A stretch of 58,058 nucleotides of DNA, taken from the NCBI RefSeq assembly GCF_004010195.1, contig NC_057724.1, forward strand, positions 64,878,293 through 64,936,350, written 5' to 3'. The DNA comes from Chiloscyllium plagiosum (taxonomy: Eukaryota). The position numbers and the translations under genes were made by a program. Positions 113-39,477 of this stretch are shown piece by piece. The notes under the pieces are model-generated. The model was not told where the DNA came from and made no database searches. It saw only the letters and a program-made list of their open reading frames with translations. Every line of letters begins with the position of its first letter. Position 1 is the stretch's first letter.

Positions 113-831
113 TGCAGAATGCCTCATCGCCAGACCTTTCCAACAAGCACCAAGACATGGCTTGGCTGGTGGTGAGAAGGGCTCTGCCTGTGAGATCCTT
201 TATGCACGCCCGGACTCTCAGCCGCACCACACGCTGCCCTCGAAGCGGCTGCGGGGGGGACGAGACTGTCACACACCTCCTTCTGGAATGTGCCTATGCA
301 GAGGAAGTCTGGAGGGGAATGCAGTGGTGTTTGTCGAGGTTCATCCTGAGCAGCGCCGTGACGCGGGACTTCATGCTCTACGGCCTGTTCCCCGGGATGC
401 ACACTGAGACGAACATTAACTGTGCCTGGAGGATCATTAACTCGGTGAAGGACGCTCTCTGGGCGGTCCGAAACCTGTAGATCTTCCAGCTGAAGGAGTT
501 GACCCCGACTGAGTGTTGCAGACTGGCACATTCCAAGGTCCAGGACTACGTGTTGAGGGACGCGCTGAAGCTTGGGGCAACTGCCGCCAAGGCGCAATGG
601 GGAAAGACCACCGTGTAACATCTGCCTGCCTAAAGAAGAACAGGGGGCCCGCGCAGTCATTTGGGCTCTGCTGACGCCTCAGCTAAAAACGTAATCGTAC
701 AGACCTGTAAATAGGAATGATTACTCTGTTTCGGCATGCAAGGAAATGGAATGTTTACATATATATGGCATGTCCAGTTGTATAGATCAAAGTATTTATG
801 AATAAAGTATATTTTTGAAATAAAAAAAAAA
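113..831 (+). mobile_element. 5'-truncated Tx1-clade (L1 superfamily) non-LTR retrotransposon: ORF2 C-terminal CCHC zinc finger, 3' UTR and A tail
   Basis: Translation contains CPRSGCGGDETVTHLLLEC (zf-RVT-type motif) and WRIINSVKDALW. Internal stop at 478-480. Ends AATAAAGTATATTTTTGAAATAAAAAAAAAA. Confidence 0.85.
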
Positions 832-1036
832 GGACAAACCCAGCAAAGTTGGCATCTGTGGCAAGAGGAGTGCCCTTCCGATGCCTCAAATGTATGTACA
901 TAGTCTTGTATAAGGAAGAAATACTTTGGGCTTGTTTATTCTCTAGATGTAAAGACCGCACGGAATCAAAGTGCTTACTGACCATGTATATAAAGTTTTT
1001 TTATGAATAAAGTACATTTTTGAAATTTAAAAAGAA
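832..1036 (+). mobile_element. Second Tx1-type 3' end directly after the first
   Basis: Ends TTTTATGAATAAAGTACATTTTTGAAATTTAAAAAG, the same terminal signature as 795-831. The body differs from the first copy. Confidence 0.55.
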
Positions 1037-19790: not shown

Positions 19791-19850
19791 ACTGGATGTC
19801 AGTTAACTCACTGAGCTGGAAGGTTCGTTTTCAGATGTTTTGTTACCATA

Positions 19851-21249
19851 CATTTCAAAAATATACTTTATTTATAAAATTATTTTGATATCTATACAAT
19901 TGGTGACGCCATACATCCGTATTCATTGCATTTCTTTACATGCAGAGATCGGTATTAATCATTCGTATATACAAGTCTGTACATCGACTATCCAGATATT
20001 CTGCTAAGGCGTCAGCGGAGCCCAATTTCTGGGTGGGCCTCCTGTTCTTTTTAGGCAGGATGAAGTAACTAAGTAAGACGCGTGTTGCATATCTGTCGAC
20101 TTAGGTGAAATTCAATTCAACGTACATGCATGGTATATAGGAAGCCGTATTAAGCATAAGTGGGCGCCATCTATTGACATGTAACATCTGCTTTTTGTTT
20201 GTAAATCAGGGGAGAGCACGGACACAGTCCCCCACTACCACAAATTTTGCAGTCGAGTATCCCGCATTTGGGGAAATCGCAGGCATCAGCACACCCGAAG
20301 TGCAATGGGATAGCCCCGTCCTGGAAGAACTTTTTTTTAATTTCAAAAATATGCTTTATTCATAATATTATTTTGATATCTATACAATTGGTCATTCCAT
20401 TCTTATGCACACATCGCACTTCTTTACATACAGACATCGGAATTAATCATTCGTATATACAAGTCTGTACATTGACCATCCAGATATTTTGCTCAGGCAT
20501 CAGTGGGGCCCAATTTCTGAGTGGGCCCCCTGTTCTTCTTGGCAGGCAGATGTTACACGGTGGTCTTTCCCCACTACGCCTTGGCAGCAGCTGCCCCAAG
20601 CTTCAGCGCGTCCCTCAACACGTAGTCCTGGACCTTGAAATGTGCCAGTATGCAACACTCAGTCGGGGTCAACTCCTTCAGCTGGAAGATCAACAGGTTT
20701 CGGACAGACCAAAGAGCATCTTTGACCGAGTTGATGATCCTCTAGGCACAGTTGATGTTCGTCTTAGTGTGCGTCCCGGGGAACAGACTGTAGAGCACGG
20801 AGTCTCGCGTCATGGAGCTGCTCGGGATGAACCTCGACAAATACCATGCATTCCTCTCCAGACTTCCTTTGCATAGGCACATTCCAGAAGGAGGTGTGTG
20901 ACAGTCTCATCCCCTCTGCAGCCGCTTCGAGGGCAGTGTGCGGATGGCAGAGAGTCCAGGCGTGCATAAAGGATCTCACAGGCAGAGTCTTTCTCACCAC
21001 CAACCGAGCCATGTCTTGGTGCGTGTTGGAAAGTTCTGGCGATGAGGTATTCTACCTTACTTAGTTACTTCATCCTGCCTAAGAAGAACAGGGGTCCCAC
21101 CCAGAAATTGGGCTCCGCTGACGCCTTAGCAGAATATCTGGATAGTCGATGTACAGTCTGCCCAGGGAACCAGTCAACAGGATCCGCCCTCTCCTTTTCC
21201 CTAAGGGTTTCAAGGACACTACGTGTTGACCACTTCCTGATGGACTTTG
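19851..21249 (-). mobile_element. Composite Tx1 insertion (ORF2 3' part, 3' UTR, partial U1 gene plus flank, second Tx1 3' UTR) inside a PLE fragment
   Basis: GTTACCATA at 19842-19850 and 21250-21258. PLE sequence is contiguous across the two flanks. Tx1 segments are homologous to 113-831. Confidence 0.8.
20207..20330 (-). pseudogene. RNU1: U1 snRNA, nt ~41-164 only (5' 40 nt missing)
   Basis: Minus strand reads GTTCTTCCAGGACGGGGCTATCCCATTGCACTTCGGGTGTGCTGA...GCGATTTCCCCAAATGCGGGATACTCGACTGCAAAATTTGTGGTAGTGGGGGACTGTGTCCGTGCTCTCCCCTG, with the U1A loop ATTGCAC, the Sm site AATTTGTGG and the terminal stem-loop. Confidence 0.93.
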
Positions 21250-23624
21250 GTTACCATATTAGGTAACATCATCAGTGAGCCTCCAATGATGTACTGGTGT
21301 TATGACCTGTGTTTAGGTTTATTTATGTGTTTAGGTTTCCTTGGGGTGGTGATGTCATTTCCTGTTTGCAATTTATATAGATAACGTGGATGAATAGATG
21401 GAAAGTATGAATGCCAACTTTGGTAACAACACAAAGATATGTGGAAATGTAAATTGTGAAGAGCAGATAAGGATACTGCAAAGGGATAACAGATAAGTTC
21501 AACGAGTGGGTAAAGAAGTGGTAAATGGAGTATTTTGTGAGAAATGTGAAATTGTCCATTTTGGCAGGAAGAATTTTTTTTAAAAAAAGCTCATTGTCTG
21601 AATGATGAGAGATTGTAGAGTTCTGAAATGCAGAGGGATTTGGGTGACTTAATTCATCAACTACAAAAAGTTCATATACAGGTATGGCAATTAGGAAACC
21701 TGATAAAACATTATGATTTATTGTGAGGTGAACAGAATACAAGAATAGTAATTTTATGCCTTAATGAGCTATGCGTTTAATGATGTATACCTTTAATGAG
21801 TTTATTTTAAAATAATCTTGTCTTGAATACTGGGAAATGCATTCTGTTTTGAAAAATATAGGTAAAAGTAACAAATTCTATATTTATTTGAATTGATATG
21901 CAATTTTAATTCATCCAAGGATGTGAGCAAGAGGTCAGTTTTTTATGCCGCTCCTTATGCCTTTTGGAAGATGGTAAACTGTTTTCTTGAACCACTGCAG
22001 TCCATGTGGTGGTTGCATCCACAGTGTTGTGTGGAAGAGTTCCAGAATGTCAACCAAACAAGTAAAGGAACGCCAATATATTTTCAAGTCAAGATGGTAT
22101 GCAGTTTGGAGGAGAACTTGCAAGTGGTGGTGTTCCAATGCATCTGCTGTTCTTGTCCTGCTAGATGGTAGAGTTCACAGGTTTTGACAATGATCTTGCA
22201 GAAATCTTGTTAGGTTCCTGCAGTACATCTTTTACATTGTATACACTGTTATCACTCTGCAAGTATGGTTGTGGTGGTCATGGGGTGGGACTGAATGTTG
22301 AGGGAGCTAGAATGGATGCCAGTCAAGCAACCTGTTTGTCCTGGTTAGTCTCAAGCTTCCTCAGGTGGAGAGCATTCCATCACACTGCCAACTTGTGCCT
22401 TGTAGAAGGTGGACAAACTTTGGAGGAGTCAGGAGATGAGGTACCTTGCTGCAGAATTTCCAGACTTTGACTCATTCTTAATGCCACAGTATTTAACTGG
22501 CTGCTCTAGTTACGTTTCTGGTCAATATTGAAAAAGCAGTGCCAAATATTATAGAGTCACGTTTCTGTGCAACAACGAGCTATTATGTTTAAAATATCTG
22601 GTCATAGATGGTAATAGACTCTTTCTAAATAAACATTAACATAAATCATGGGTGATGATGCATCCCAGTTCTTATGGGATCCACCTATCACAGAAGGGAG
22701 CATTTTTTTAAAAAAGAAGTTATTCTTGTTAAGTGGGTGTCATCCCTACAGGTCAGCATTTATTGCCTATCCCTATTGGACTAGTCCAGGTCGGCTAAGA
22801 ATTCTCCTAAAGGACATCAATGAAGCAGATGGGCTTTTATAACAGTCAGGAGTGGTTACGTTGTTGCTGTCGGACTAGTTTATAATTTAAGATCATTTAG
22901 TGAACTCAAATCTCACCATCTACCATGCTGTGATTTGACCCTATATACCCAGAATATTATCTCAGAATTACTAGCCCCATAGCACTGCCACAAGGCCACC
23001 ATCTCTGGCTGCAGGCTTCTATGCTCTGCAATTTTCCAGTTTAGTGATAGTGAATGGGCACAATATTTACTAAATGAATCATTTGTTTCCACAAGGTTGG
23101 TTATTCTCTTTACTTATTCTTTATTTGATTTAATTTCAGACAAGAGTTGAAAATTTGGTGTTAATTTATCTAGCTGACATTTCATATGTTGTGTTCTCTG
23201 TTTGGTGGCAGGATCAGTGGCATCAAGGAGTTCTTAACTATAAATTAATTGCCTATTTAAGTGCCTCACTTGGCACTGGAGCAGGAACATCATTCAAAGC
23301 ATTTTTTGTCTGGAAATGAATCAGAATGCAAGAGGGAAAATGGCAGAGAACTTAATTTTCACCATCTTGCCTGATTAAATGTCCTCCTCACCTCCAAATT
23401 CACCACCAGCTGAAAAGCAAAAAGAAACCCCATCTGAAATCATGATTCATTGGACTGTGCTCAGGTTAAATGTCATGTTTCTCACAACCTCATATCTTTT
23501 ACATCAAGAGTTAAACAGCACGAAATAGACCCTTCTGTCCAACTCAACCATGTTGACCATACATTCTAATCTGACCTAGTCCCATTTGCCTGCATTTGAC
23601 CCATATCCCTCTAAACCCTTCTTG

Positions 23625-24206
23625 AGTTTTAAGATTTGTAGCTCAGGTTGAGGTTCTTGATGTCGGTTTGCTCGCTGAGCTGGAAGGTTCATTTCCAGAC
23701 ATTTCATCACCCTACCAGGTAACATCTTCAGTGGGCCTCAGGCGAAGCACTGTACATGATTCCTGCTTTGTATTTATATGTTTGGGTTTCTTGGGGTTGG
23801 TGATGTCATTTCTGTGGTGATGTCATTTTCTTTTTCTCAGGGGGTGGTAGATGGGGTCTAACTCAATGTGTTTATTGATAAGAGTTCCAGATGGAATGCC
23901 ATGCTTCAAGAAATTCTCATGCGTGTCTCTGTTTGGCTTGACCTAAGATGGATGTGTTGTCCCAGTCGAAATGGTGTCCATCCTTATCTGTATGTGAGGA
24001 TACTAATTAGAGTGGGTCATGTCGTTTTGTAGCTAGTTGGTGTTCATGTATCCAGGTGGGTAGTTTTCTGCTTGTTTGTCCAATGTAGTGTTTGTTACAG
24101 TTCTTGCATGGCATTTTGAAAATGACATTAGTTTTGTTTGTTGTCTGTATAGGGTCTTTCAAGTTCATTAGCTGCTGTTTTAATGTGTTGGTGGGTTTGT
24201 GGGCTA
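23625..24206 (-). mobile_element. Penelope-like element 3' fragment (GIY-YIG endonuclease)
   Basis: NVIFKMPCKNCNKHYIGQTSRKLPTWIHEHQLATKRHD. Hammerhead-like CTGAAGATGTTACC...GATGAAATGTC on the minus strand at ~23695-23732. Confidence 0.88.
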
Positions 24207-36620: not shown

Positions 36621-36830
36621 AATAACTGTCAGTACTTCTAAGTCTGGGAGAACACAAAAACTAGATACTTAAGATTTCCAGTTGGGAGAAAAAGAAAATC
36701 AGTCTGAGCTCACAGGAGACCAGCCAGTCTTGCATCAAGTAAAGCACTGCAATGTTTGTCCACCATATTACACACAATTTCCTCCAATTGAAAGCAGAAT
36801 AAATAAGACGGTTATAAAAATATAACTTAC

Positions 36831-39269
36831 ATTGGCATTGACTCCAATGTGGCATGATGAAAGCTTGTTATTTCCTGCAGTTTGCCCAGACCCTATTCCA
36901 CTGCTCAGCTTTTTTGAAACCTGATGAGGTTTTGGAAGGCACGTCTTTGAAACACCAACTGATTGCGTTGAAGGCTTTCTTCCTCTGTCCACAACAGAGC
37001 AACCTACTTTGCAGATTTGAACAGGAGGTATAATGTCTTTTTGCATTCCAGATTTACGTACTTGACTAACACTTTTCCTCCTGGCTCCTGGGAGATCAAC
37101 ACATTTCAAGGAATTCTCAGTTCTGATTTTGGCTTGCCTTAATTGCTGTCCAGATCTTGGTACATTTGAATTTTTTCCACTACTAGTTTCAATGGCAACA
37201 GTGCCAGAACTTCTGTGTTCATCCAGGGACTCTTCTGCTCCAACATGCATGTCATCCTGAAGTATGGCGGAAGAAACCAGGTTAGATTGGTCAAGTTGTT
37301 GATATTCTAGAAAACTTCGCCTCCTTTTGATATATGGAGTAGAAATATAGTTGGGAGCCCATTCTGAACTCACTATGTCATGAATCACGTCTGTCTGTTC
37401 ACAAGTAATTTGTTCTCCATGTTGGGAGGAGTTTCTTAAATGTAGGCTTCTTTCTAAACCATAAACCCCTTTACGTAATCCTACAGAACAGCTGAAATCA
37501 CAATCACCACCTCCATTTGCTTCAACTGATCTTTTTTCAATACCTATAGAACTATCCGCTTTCCCCAAATCCAGAATCAAATTTGAGTTACCACTGTTTC
37601 CACCTGTCTCCACTTGGTCTAACATTGATCCATAATCCATAACACATTGTCTCCCAAGTTTAAAGTTCTCAGATGTCAGTCTGACTTCATTCGAGCCTCC
37701 TGGTGATAGAGGCACCTGGCAATGGGGCAAGTTTGTTATTTTATTGGCATTTTCCAAACTGTTATCATGCTTTGATGCATCAAATGTAGCATTGCAGTCA
37801 AAGACAGTTACAATTCTACGTAACTGCTCTTTGTCGTTTGTTGATTGAAGTAACTTGCATCCAGACAAAGTATAGGCTTTGCTAGCTGTCTCAAAACTAT
37901 CTTCATATTTTGCTGCAAACATTGCATTTTTCCAGTCATCCACAGTCACAGTGCAATGAAATGGTACCATTACGTTCGTTGATGGAGGCATCTTGCAATG
38001 AAAGGAGCTAGTTACATTGAGGTCACATCCCTCATCATCTTCATATAGAAAGTTAAAAGTTCTATTTCTAAAATTATCCACAATTGTGGTACCATTTAAC
38101 TGCACTGTGCAATTAAATGAGTTAGTTACCTTCTGGTCATTTCTAATGTGGTTTTCATGCTTTGATAAATTAAGGGCTACATTTACATGATCTGTCACAG
38201 GTATTGTTTCATTCAACTGGATTAGCTCTACTTTAGATGAGGATAGCATACAGTTAAATACAATGGGCAGCTTGTTCTGCATATAACTGGAAGAGACAAC
38301 ATGCTTAAGTACACCAACTTCCCAGTCATTAAGGTCACTTTGCAACATCGTTTCATTTAACTGGATCAAGTTTTCAGAAGGGAACACGGGCAGAGCTCCA
38401 GCCTCAGTAAAGTCATTTGTTTTAACAGGTGGATCTTCAGTTTCCATTTCCGAGAGAATTTGTTGACAGTTGATACTGTTTTCCTCTTGCAATTCTGAAG
38501 TGGTGCCATCTTGTGGCAATTTTGCTGGGGAGGCAATTGAACAGTTCAACGGTATAAGTTCATTATTTATCATGGAAACATTAGTCACAGAAGCTGGATT
38601 TATTGCATCAACTATATGGAGATGACATAGCTCGCTTTTATCATTTAACTTAGTAGCTATACGTATACATTCTTCTGCAATAGCACTGGTGAATAAGTGT
38701 GACAAGTTACTTGATTCCATAATGGATAGTGAGCAACAGGTTAATTGTATTTGCTCCTGTTCAGAGGTACTTTTAGAAACATTAATGTCAAGCAAGGTTT
38801 GTTGCACTATCACATCCACATCTTTTGTTTTTAAAGGAATTTGACCTTTATATTTGCTGTCAGAACTTGGAAGACAATATGTTGCATTCAAAGAATTTTC
38901 TTTTGGCCGTGTATCCACTTTGAATTTGGTATCCAATTTTCGGGTAGAATTTAGACTGGAAGAGCCTGTGCTGAATTGCCCACTTTTGACAATGGAGGCA
39001 CTTGGTTGTCTTAGCATTCGTTTTTCAAGAGGTTTCAAGTTGTTGGTAGCAACTGTCTGTTTCCCCAATTCAGGCTGTGGCTTTTTTGAGCAACCTTGTG
39101 CTGGACCTTTTCTGGTCAGGAGTGAACATCTGCGTTGTGATGTTGCTTCACTATTCGTCTTAGCAGCTGGGGGAGCAACAGGATTGCTTGGGGTTCTAAT
39201 GGAAACTGAGGGTCTAGTGGAAATACACACTGAAGTTCGACACTTGGGTGCAGCTAATGATGACTTCAT
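36831..39269 (-). CDS. Uncharacterised ~947-aa protein, large exon (813 codons, S/T/K/N-rich, probably disordered)
   Basis: 2.5-kb uninterrupted, repeat-free ORF with no transposon motifs. First in-frame ATG after an upstream TGA (39345-39347) is at 39269 (MKSSLAAPK). Donor AAT|GTAAGT at 36830. Likely acceptor GGTTTCAG before 39380. The true N-terminus is uncertain. Confidence 0.85.
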
Positions 39270-39477
39270 TGAACACAGTCTGGATTGTGGTGATGTTTTC
39301 AGCACAGGAGGTGGGAAAAAGAGGAAATCAAAAGCAGTAGCTGATCAACAAATACCACTTAAAACAAAACACGCAGGCATCTGAAACCACAAGGCAAATA
39401 CTTTAAAAGGATGCAAAAACTGAAAGAACTCTGGATGTTGTAAATCAGAGACAAAAACAGAAATTGCTGGAAAAGCT

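What the first reader, a model, noticed from the sequence alone, without database searches (positions are those of the whole stretch)
20207..21249. Tx1 retrotransposon joined to nt 41 of a U1 snRNA gene: candidate U1-targeting element
Seen: on the minus strand the Tx1 terminus AATAAAGCATATTTTTGAAATTAAAAAAAA is followed with no spacer by U1 nt ~41-164. Established: Tx1-clade elements are often sequence-specific for multicopy RNA genes (Keno in U2, Mutsu in 5S, Dewa in tRNA arrays). Inference: a family that inserts in the 3' strand of U1 stem-loop I, separating the 5'-splice-site-pairing end and U1-70K loop from the rest. I cannot tell whether this family is already catalogued. The related copy at 113-831 is not in U1, so specificity may be partial.
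Basis: partly seen in the sequence, partly recalled or inferred. Interest (0 to 1): 0.8.

Follow-up and report, generated by a model that had tools for sequence, protein, structure and literature searches.

The report
Keno-like LINE hitting U1 and U2
A jumping gene that is scattered by the thousands through this animal genome also lands again and again, in one direction, at one spot inside U1 splicing-RNA genes and at the matching known spot in U2 genes, and it seems to borrow these genes' promoters to be copied.

Summary
The junction is real: a Tx1-clade LINE tail (A8) abuts U1 nt 41. But the window locus is no U1 gene hit in place. It is a 1.4-kb retrotransposed chimera (LINE piece, U1 41-164, U1 3' flank, second LINE tail) between 9-bp target duplications in a dispersed repeat. 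Genome-wide, 21 LINE-tail|U1 junctions were found beside 20 intact U1 copies. All are in U1's direction, 19 of 21 at nt 35-42, from several subfamilies in several U1 paralog groups; chance gives under 0.004. Four are in place, one with a 10-bp duplication. The family is not U1-specific: at least 2,562 tails exist and 0 of 62 sampled ends abut U1. It also sits at the Keno site of U2, and 35 of 40 sampled 5' ends carry a U2 head beginning at or just inside nt 1; one has a fresh U1 1-56 head. Best reading: a Keno-like family with relaxed specificity that homes to about +36-42 of U1 and U2 genes and is probably transcribed from their promoters. My paper searches found no LINE with U1 as target; Repbase was not searchable. 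This scan noted U1-targeting LINEs before in other genomes, at other positions.

The parts
21259..21361 (-). Host dispersed repeat, 5' side (looks Penelope-like to me; label recalled, no Pfam hit for similar window ORFs)
   Evidence: 72-78% matches at window 23709-23812, L059, L170; Pfam blank for window ORFs 40589 and 40778
21250..21258 (-). Target-site duplication, 5' copy (TATGGTAAC)
   Evidence: paralogous repeats run straight through the site (window 23709, L059, L170)
21153..21249 (-). 5'-truncated Tx1 ORF2 piece (5' end of the chimera)
   Evidence: 87% to positions 691-790 of the U1-inserted copy in L041
21056..21159 (+). 104-nt inverted copy of 19974-20077 (U1-flank/second-tail junction included), replacing about 11 nt of ORF2
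   Evidence: 4 mismatches in 104; ORF2 resumes at position 802; short microhomology at the ends
20553..21056 (-). Tx1 ORF2 C-terminal part (zf-RVT region), decayed, with in-frame stops
   Evidence: 84-86% to window 114-821 and L041; zf-RVT E 2.3e-10 on the paralog window:34-477
20331..20552 (-). Tx1 3' UTR with AATAAA and A8 tail
20207..20330 (-). U1 snRNA nt 41-164
   Evidence: Rfam RF00003; 94% to intact U1
20068..20206 (-). U1 gene 3' flank, starting with a 3'-box-like stretch (3' box label from established knowledge)
   Evidence: aligns to flanks of intact U1 genes, e.g. L019
19852..20059 (-). Second, 5'-truncated Tx1 tail (3' end of the chimera; no A run left)
   Evidence: 86% to the first tail
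19842..19850 (-). Target-site duplication, 3' copy (TATGGTAAC), after one extra G
19792..19841 (-). Host dispersed repeat, 3' side
   Evidence: 78-88% to window 23656-23715 and L170
114..831 (+). Dispersed copy of the same Tx1 family, not in U1; a second, older tail follows at about 990-1033

Best explanation
An AP-endonuclease Tx1-clade LINE family (several subfamilies, plus an ORF1-only derivative) of the Keno type with relaxed specificity. Most insertions are dispersed. But it homes, always in the gene's direction, to about +36-42 of U1 genes and +38-42 of U2 genes (shown). The bottom-strand nick lies there and the top-strand nick about 10-20 nt further on (U1 nt 46-57, U2 nt 52-53; inferred from duplications). 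Copies in snRNA genes are probably the masters, transcribed from the external snRNA promoter, so their offspring start with a U2 or U1 head at nt 1 (inferred). Transcripts that read through the weak tail into the snRNA 3' half and flank are picked up when the reverse transcriptase jumps from a truncated LINE cDNA onto them (inferred). The window unit is such a chimera, pasted with a 9-bp duplication into a dispersed repeat. Its 104-nt inversion was copied from its own 3' part, by a switch onto the nascent cDNA or by later repair (inferred).
For: 21 tail|U1 junctions, 19 at nt 35-42, beside 20 intact U1 copies; expected by chance 0.0001-0.003. In place: L041 promoter end + U1 1-46|LINE|U1 37-164; L035 promoter + U1 1-68|LINE|U1 72-164; L033 U1 8-~31|ORF1-only element|U1 35-164; L038 distal promoter|LINE|U1 38-164. 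Junctions fall in at least four U1 3'-flank groups, each with intact paralogs, and tails of at least three types. U2: 6 of 8 pattern hits are LINE tails at nt 38-42; L144 and L134 carry the Keno 3' target quoted in PMC6136364; L152 has promoter + U2 1-53|LINE...|U2 42 onward. Heads: 35 of 40 5' ends carry U2 sequence, none reaches upstream of nt 1, 0 of 40 has an snRNA promoter match; fresh heads in L241/L075 (U1 1-56), L239 (U2 1-49), L214 (U2 11-46). Spacer U1 41-57 between tandem copies in L101; dispersed duplications of 14-22 bp. Chimeras LINE|snRNA 3' part|LINE tail: L039 (U1 39-162), L097 (U1 42-113), L153 (U2 variant 38-190 plus about 8 nt), L144 (U2 38-100).
Against: Under 1% of tails are in U1 (21 against at least 2,562 exact tails), so homing is a minority route. 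Only 4 of 21 junctions show U1 5' sequence or promoter on the 5' side; the rest have gaps, contig ends, deletions or other flanks. Some junctions may be copies of one event (e.g. L013/L016; tandem C37 cluster). No full-length element was seen behind an intact snRNA promoter. No RNA data were obtained. Kojima 2015 (PMC4494074, discussion read) explains such heads by template switching onto snRNA, which also fits single fresh heads.
Confidence: 0.7

Rival explanations
1. A strictly U1-specific Tx1 family.
For: Sharp, oriented site in U1; in-place insertion with duplication in L041.
Against: 0 of 31 sampled A/B-type ends and 0 of 31 C-type ends abut U1; the same tails sit in U2; U1-linked tails do not form their own clade; far below the 20% flank criterion of PMC4494074.
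Confidence: 0.03
2. No real preference: one or two chance insertions in a U1 array, multiplied by duplication and conversion, with later subfamilies landing in the A tail of the first.
For: Junctions cluster on C37 and small contigs; the family often lies in tandem with itself; U1 arrays homogenise (established knowledge).
Against: Two different subfamilies are joined directly to U1 5' sequence (L041; L033, L035) and a third case to the promoter (L038); junction positions vary by a few bases and 5' truncations differ; the same pattern recurs independently in U2 at the published Keno site.
Confidence: 0.1
3. Homing is real, but heads and snRNA pieces come from template switching onto free U1/U2 snRNA, and the element has its own internal promoter.
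For: Kojima 2015 favours template switching for crocodilian heads; snRNA retrocopies fused to a SINE head are common here; most heads are fixed subfamily features (shared 5-nt deletion), inherited from a master.
Against: Head 3' ends (U2 37 or 52, U1 56) coincide with nick positions read from in-place and tandem copies (L152, L101); several snRNA 3' parts carry genomic flank that mature snRNA lacks (window).
Confidence: 0.17

Closest known systems
Keno (Tx1 clade; KenoDr1, Keno-1_SSa; Kojima and Fujiwara 2004, not seen, as quoted in PMC4494074, PMC4640811 and PMC6136364, passages read)
   Same: AP-type endonuclease + RT LINE; sense-orientation insertion with the same U2 3' flank (L144, L134).
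   Different: Keno is described as U2-specific. This family has thousands of dispersed copies and, in this assembly, more junctions in U1 (21) than were found in U2 (6).
Tx1-Mar and SINEU of crocodilians (Kojima 2015, PMC4494074; passages and parts 3-4 of 5 read)
   Same: Keno-related Tx1 families with U1- or U2-derived heads, recurrently renewed; weak target preference; tandem insertion.
   Different: Their reported targets are a Mariner transposon and LTR elements, not snRNA genes, and how they are transcribed is left open there. Here the heads match the sites at which the family sits in U1/U2 genes.
Utopia (PMC4640811; passages and section 6 read)
   Same: Same U2 site; tandem copies; U2 5' part often lost.
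   Different: Restriction-like endonuclease; no U1.
Dada-U1 (PMC3706591, PMC8869645; passages read)
   Same: Targets U1 genes in one direction.
   Different: DDE DNA transposon, 6-bp duplication at a different U1 site.
HAL1-type ORF1-only elements (cited in PMC4494074; definition recalled)
   Same: Subfamily C is ORF1 plus 3' UTR, about 1.7 kb, without ORF2.
   Different: Derived from a Tx1-type LINE and found in U1 and U2 at the same sites.

Membership tests
Tx1 clade / Keno | AP-type endonuclease at the ORF2 N-terminus | tested here: met
   L148 and L097 show the endonuclease motifs; Pfam Exo_endo_phos E 0.0017, below the curated cut-off, on a gapped copy; full-length homologs carry PF03372
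Tx1 clade / Keno | RT, C-terminal zinc region, CCHC ORF1, A tail | tested here: met
   RVT_1 E 2.6e-22, zf-RVT, zf-CCHC and ZCCHC3 RNA-binding domain
Keno | Insertion with U2 3' flank starting at nt 38-39 | tested here: met
   L134, L143, L144, L145 at nt 38-39; two in C97435 at nt 42; site from PMC6136364 and PMC4640811
Keno | Target specificity (over 20% of flanks in the target, criterion of PMC4494074) | tested here: not met
   0 of 62 sampled ends at the U1 or U2 site; about 27 snRNA junctions against at least 2,562 tails
Keno | RT clusters with KenoDr1/KenoFr1 | not testable with these tools
   No hit is named Keno; a zebrafish deposit BAC82621.1 is 35% identical but carries no element name
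Tx1-Mar | U1- or U2-derived 5' head | tested here: met
   35 of 40 5' ends
Tx1-Mar | Preference for Mariner-N4-like transposons | not tested
   No repeat library; sampled flanks were unlike each other apart from self-insertions
   L041 with 10-bp duplication; L033, L038 with deletions; L035 at a second site

The most novel reading that the evidence does not exclude
The family has no promoter of its own and lives only through copies that land 36-42 bases behind the start of Pol II snRNA genes. It finds them by position (tethering to the snRNA promoter complex) more than by sequence, since U1 and U2 share just GTTCT there and 0 of 54 dispersed ends show that word. Thousands of dispersed copies are then dead offspring, about half of the assembled U1 loci have been consumed as launch sites, and this cycle explains the U1/U2 heads of Tx1-Mar and SINEU, whose transcription is an open question in print. 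A degenerate U1 9-28 inside one subfamily's 5' UTR would record an earlier U1-resident master.
Probability: 0.3. Interest if true: 0.72.

Novelty: new variant of a known kind. Interest (0 to 1): 0.5.

Why it matters
In the papers read, snRNA-targeting transposons are Keno and Utopia (U2), Dada (U1, U6) and a Tx1 family in U5; none is a LINE in U1. [quoted passage not shown] It offers a testable origin for snRNA-headed LINEs and SINEU: co-transcription from masters inside snRNA genes. It also shows that about as many U1 loci are disrupted as intact in this assembly, which matters for annotation.

Tried and rejected
In-place reading of the window locus: rejected; no U1 5' part or promoter, and a duplication in a foreign repeat. 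U1 3' halves as copies of mature snRNA: rejected for most junctions, which continue into genomic U1 flank. GTTCT as a general target word: 0 of 54 dispersed ends. A U1-only subfamily C: all 6 C-type tails in the first tree were snRNA-linked, but that was a sampling effect; the pattern excluded C, and 0 of 31 newly sampled C ends abut U1 or U2. U5 as a third target: 5 whole U5 matches and 4 exact pattern hits, none with a tail in the flanks checked; too few to decide between position and sequence. U4, U6, U11, U12, 5S and tRNA genes were not searched. Sequencing runs: holders in four coded organisms, all below half the words, no RNA holder listed; no reads were laid, so this is no evidence. Naming the element by protein search failed. 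In one search the label TxA for L032 is a regex error (type B). In one search L004 is placed at nt 48 because of an internal deletion; it starts at nt 41, and placements are off by up to one base. Seven-to-eleven-base 'duplications' that lie inside the element were ignored as chance.

Full report
Observation. On the minus strand a LINE 3' end with AATAAA and A8 (20338-20331) is followed directly by U1 nt 41-164 (20330-20207). Rfam gives U1 as the only gathering-level hit of the window. The U1 part has 7 differences in 124 nt from an intact U1 of this genome and continues into about 140 nt of U1 gene 3' flank. Nt 41 lies in the 3' strand of stem-loop I.

Anatomy of the window locus. Minus strand, 5' to 3': dispersed repeat; TATGGTAAC (21258-21250); ORF2 piece (21249-21153); a 104-nt inverted copy (21159-21056) of 19974-20077; ORF2 end and 3' UTR (21056-20340); A tail; U1 41-164; U1 flank; a second 5'-truncated LINE tail (20059-19852); TATGGTAAC (19850-19842); rest of the repeat. 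Three paralogs of the host repeat run straight through the site, so the 9-mer is a target duplication around the whole 1.4 kb. There is no U1 5' part or promoter in the window. The locus is thus a moved chimera. The inverted piece includes the junction between U1 flank and second tail and replaces about 11 nt of ORF2, so it was copied from this composite. A switch of the reverse transcriptase onto its own cDNA, or later templated repair, would do this (inference).

U1 junctions in the genome. A search with the junction scored 40 of 1,362 candidates; patterns added loci. Among 48 distinct U1 hits in the loci held, the script labelled 20 intact, 20 as LINE-tail junctions and 8 as other; a short one in L090/L101 makes 21. 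All 21 are in U1's direction. Nineteen begin at U1 nt 35-42, one near 60, one near 72. Expected chance hits in an 8-nt window in one direction are 0.0001-0.003 for 2,562-30,000 copies and 45-100 genes. Four are in place. L041 has the promoter end and U1 1-46, a 1.5-kb truncated LINE, then U1 37-164 (10-bp duplication). L035 has promoter, U1 1-68, element, U1 72-164. L033 has U1 8 to about 31, an ORF1-only element, U1 35-164. L038 has only the distal promoter before the LINE. The other 17 have gaps, contig ends, deletions or foreign 5' flanks. Junction loci fall into at least four U1 3'-flank groups, each with intact paralogs, and their tails belong to at least three types. Some may be duplicates of one event; I estimate about ten independent tail-by-flank combinations (inference).

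Not U1-specific. One terminal 25-mer occurs 2,394 times and the subfamily-C 25-mer 168 times. None of 31 ends in the first 30 loci of the first (all on C1) and none of 31 distinct ends in the first 30 loci of the second (C1-C5) abuts U1; these are first-listed samples, not random ones. U1-linked tails mix with dispersed ones in the tree, whose bootstrap had not settled. Dispersed copies have duplications of 14-22 bp where found, and 0 of 54 ends show GTTCT in the first 9 nt. Several ends are followed directly by another truncated copy of the family.

U2. Of 30 U2 loci fetched (47 matches), two were LINE-tail junctions. A junction pattern gave 8 hits (control 3), 6 of them LINE tails at U2 nt 38-42; one (L143) is a distant tail type. 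L144 and L134 carry the 3' target quoted for Keno in PMC6136364. L152 has promoter-side flank and U2 1-53, ORF2, a gap, then tails joined to U2 nt 42. U1 and U2 share GTTCT at nt 41 and 42. U5: 5 whole matches, 4 exact hits, no tails; too few to weigh.

Heads. A 5' UTR 21-mer occurs 194 times. Of the first 40 listed, 35 carry a U2 head, either U2 1-52 with a shared 5-nt deletion at the Keno site or a U2-variant 1-37; five are cut before the head. None extends upstream of nt 1 and none matched the seven snRNA promoters compared. Three have fresh heads: U1 1-56 (L241 = L075), U2 1-49 (L239), U2 11-46 (L214). One subfamily has a weak U1 9-28 match about 60 nt behind its U2 head (scores 26-33, at the edge of a null in which 1% reach 26 and the maximum is 34). 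Head ends agree with L152 (nt 53) and with the U1 41-57 spacer between tandem copies in L101. Chimeras like the window's recur: L039, L097, L144, L153; two stop almost exactly at the snRNA 3' end.

Proteins. RT, zf-RVT, CCHC ORF1 and AP-endonuclease motifs are present in family copies. L148 links a U2 head, ORF1, endonuclease and a B tail across a gap. Subfamily C lacks ORF2. No homolog is named Keno.

Mechanism. Shown: oriented, recurrent insertion at about +36-42 of U1 and U2, much dispersed insertion, snRNA heads, chimeras. Inferred: target-primed reverse transcription with nicks about 10-20 nt apart; masters transcribed from snRNA promoters; read-through RNAs captured by template jumps. 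Whether the site is read by sequence or by position behind the promoter is open. Template switching onto free snRNA remains a rival for the heads.

Literature. [quoted passage not shown] PMC4494074 (passages, parts 3-4 of 5; figures and supplements not seen): Tx1 targets in the figure legend include U2, U5, 5S and satellites; Tx1-Mar have U1/U2 heads; SINEU transcription is open. PMC3706591 and PMC8869645 (passages): Dada-U1. PMC6136364 (passages). Kojima and Fujiwara 2004 was not seen. Six paper searches listed no paper on a LINE in U1; Repbase, Dfam and subscription journals were not searchable, so prior cataloguing is not excluded. Earlier notes of this scan describe U2-headed Keno-like copies in this genome and U1-targeting LINEs in other genomes at other positions; I did not check the latter.

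Verdict. Real, partly as read: a Keno-like LINE with relaxed specificity for which U1 is a true hot spot, seen here through a transduced chimera. New variant of a known kind; interest 0.5.

Noticed in passing
L149:3-3517 (G000:C5:119988501 onward): Two long ORFs with C2H2 fingers and an RT C-terminus unlike Tx1 (R2/NeSL/Utopia-like to my eye; Pfam gave only weak zinc fingers), about 5 kb upstream of an old LINE-tail|U2 nt 38 junction.
   Followed up: no
L111, L115, L118, L119, L125, L126, L130, L136, L095, L096: Dispersed U2 and U1 retrocopies, 3'-truncated and followed at once by the same SINE-like head (tRNA-derived label recalled): probably snRNA/SINE template-switch chimeras, common in this genome.
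   Followed up: no
L113-L133, L152, L156: At least three divergent U2 variant families (75-82% to canonical U2), some with their own shared upstream and 3' flanks; one variant supplied the head of a LINE subfamily.
   Followed up: partly
L033:2501-4218, L172, L177, L189: Subfamily C: ORF1-only (HAL1-like) Tx1 derivative, 168 exact tails, several with long open ORF1.
   Followed up: partly
L203-L242: The commonest U2 head lacks exactly 5 nt at the Keno cut site, which would stop the element from inserting in its own head (speculation).
   Followed up: no
window 36768-39344 (-): 858-aa open frame, probably a large host exon, no Pfam hit.
   Followed up: partly
window 831-1033 (+): A second, older Tx1-like tail follows the dispersed copy head-to-tail.
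   Followed up: no
L035:5489-5607: A U1 gene whose proximal promoter and nt 1-45 are deleted without any LINE at the join.
   Followed up: no
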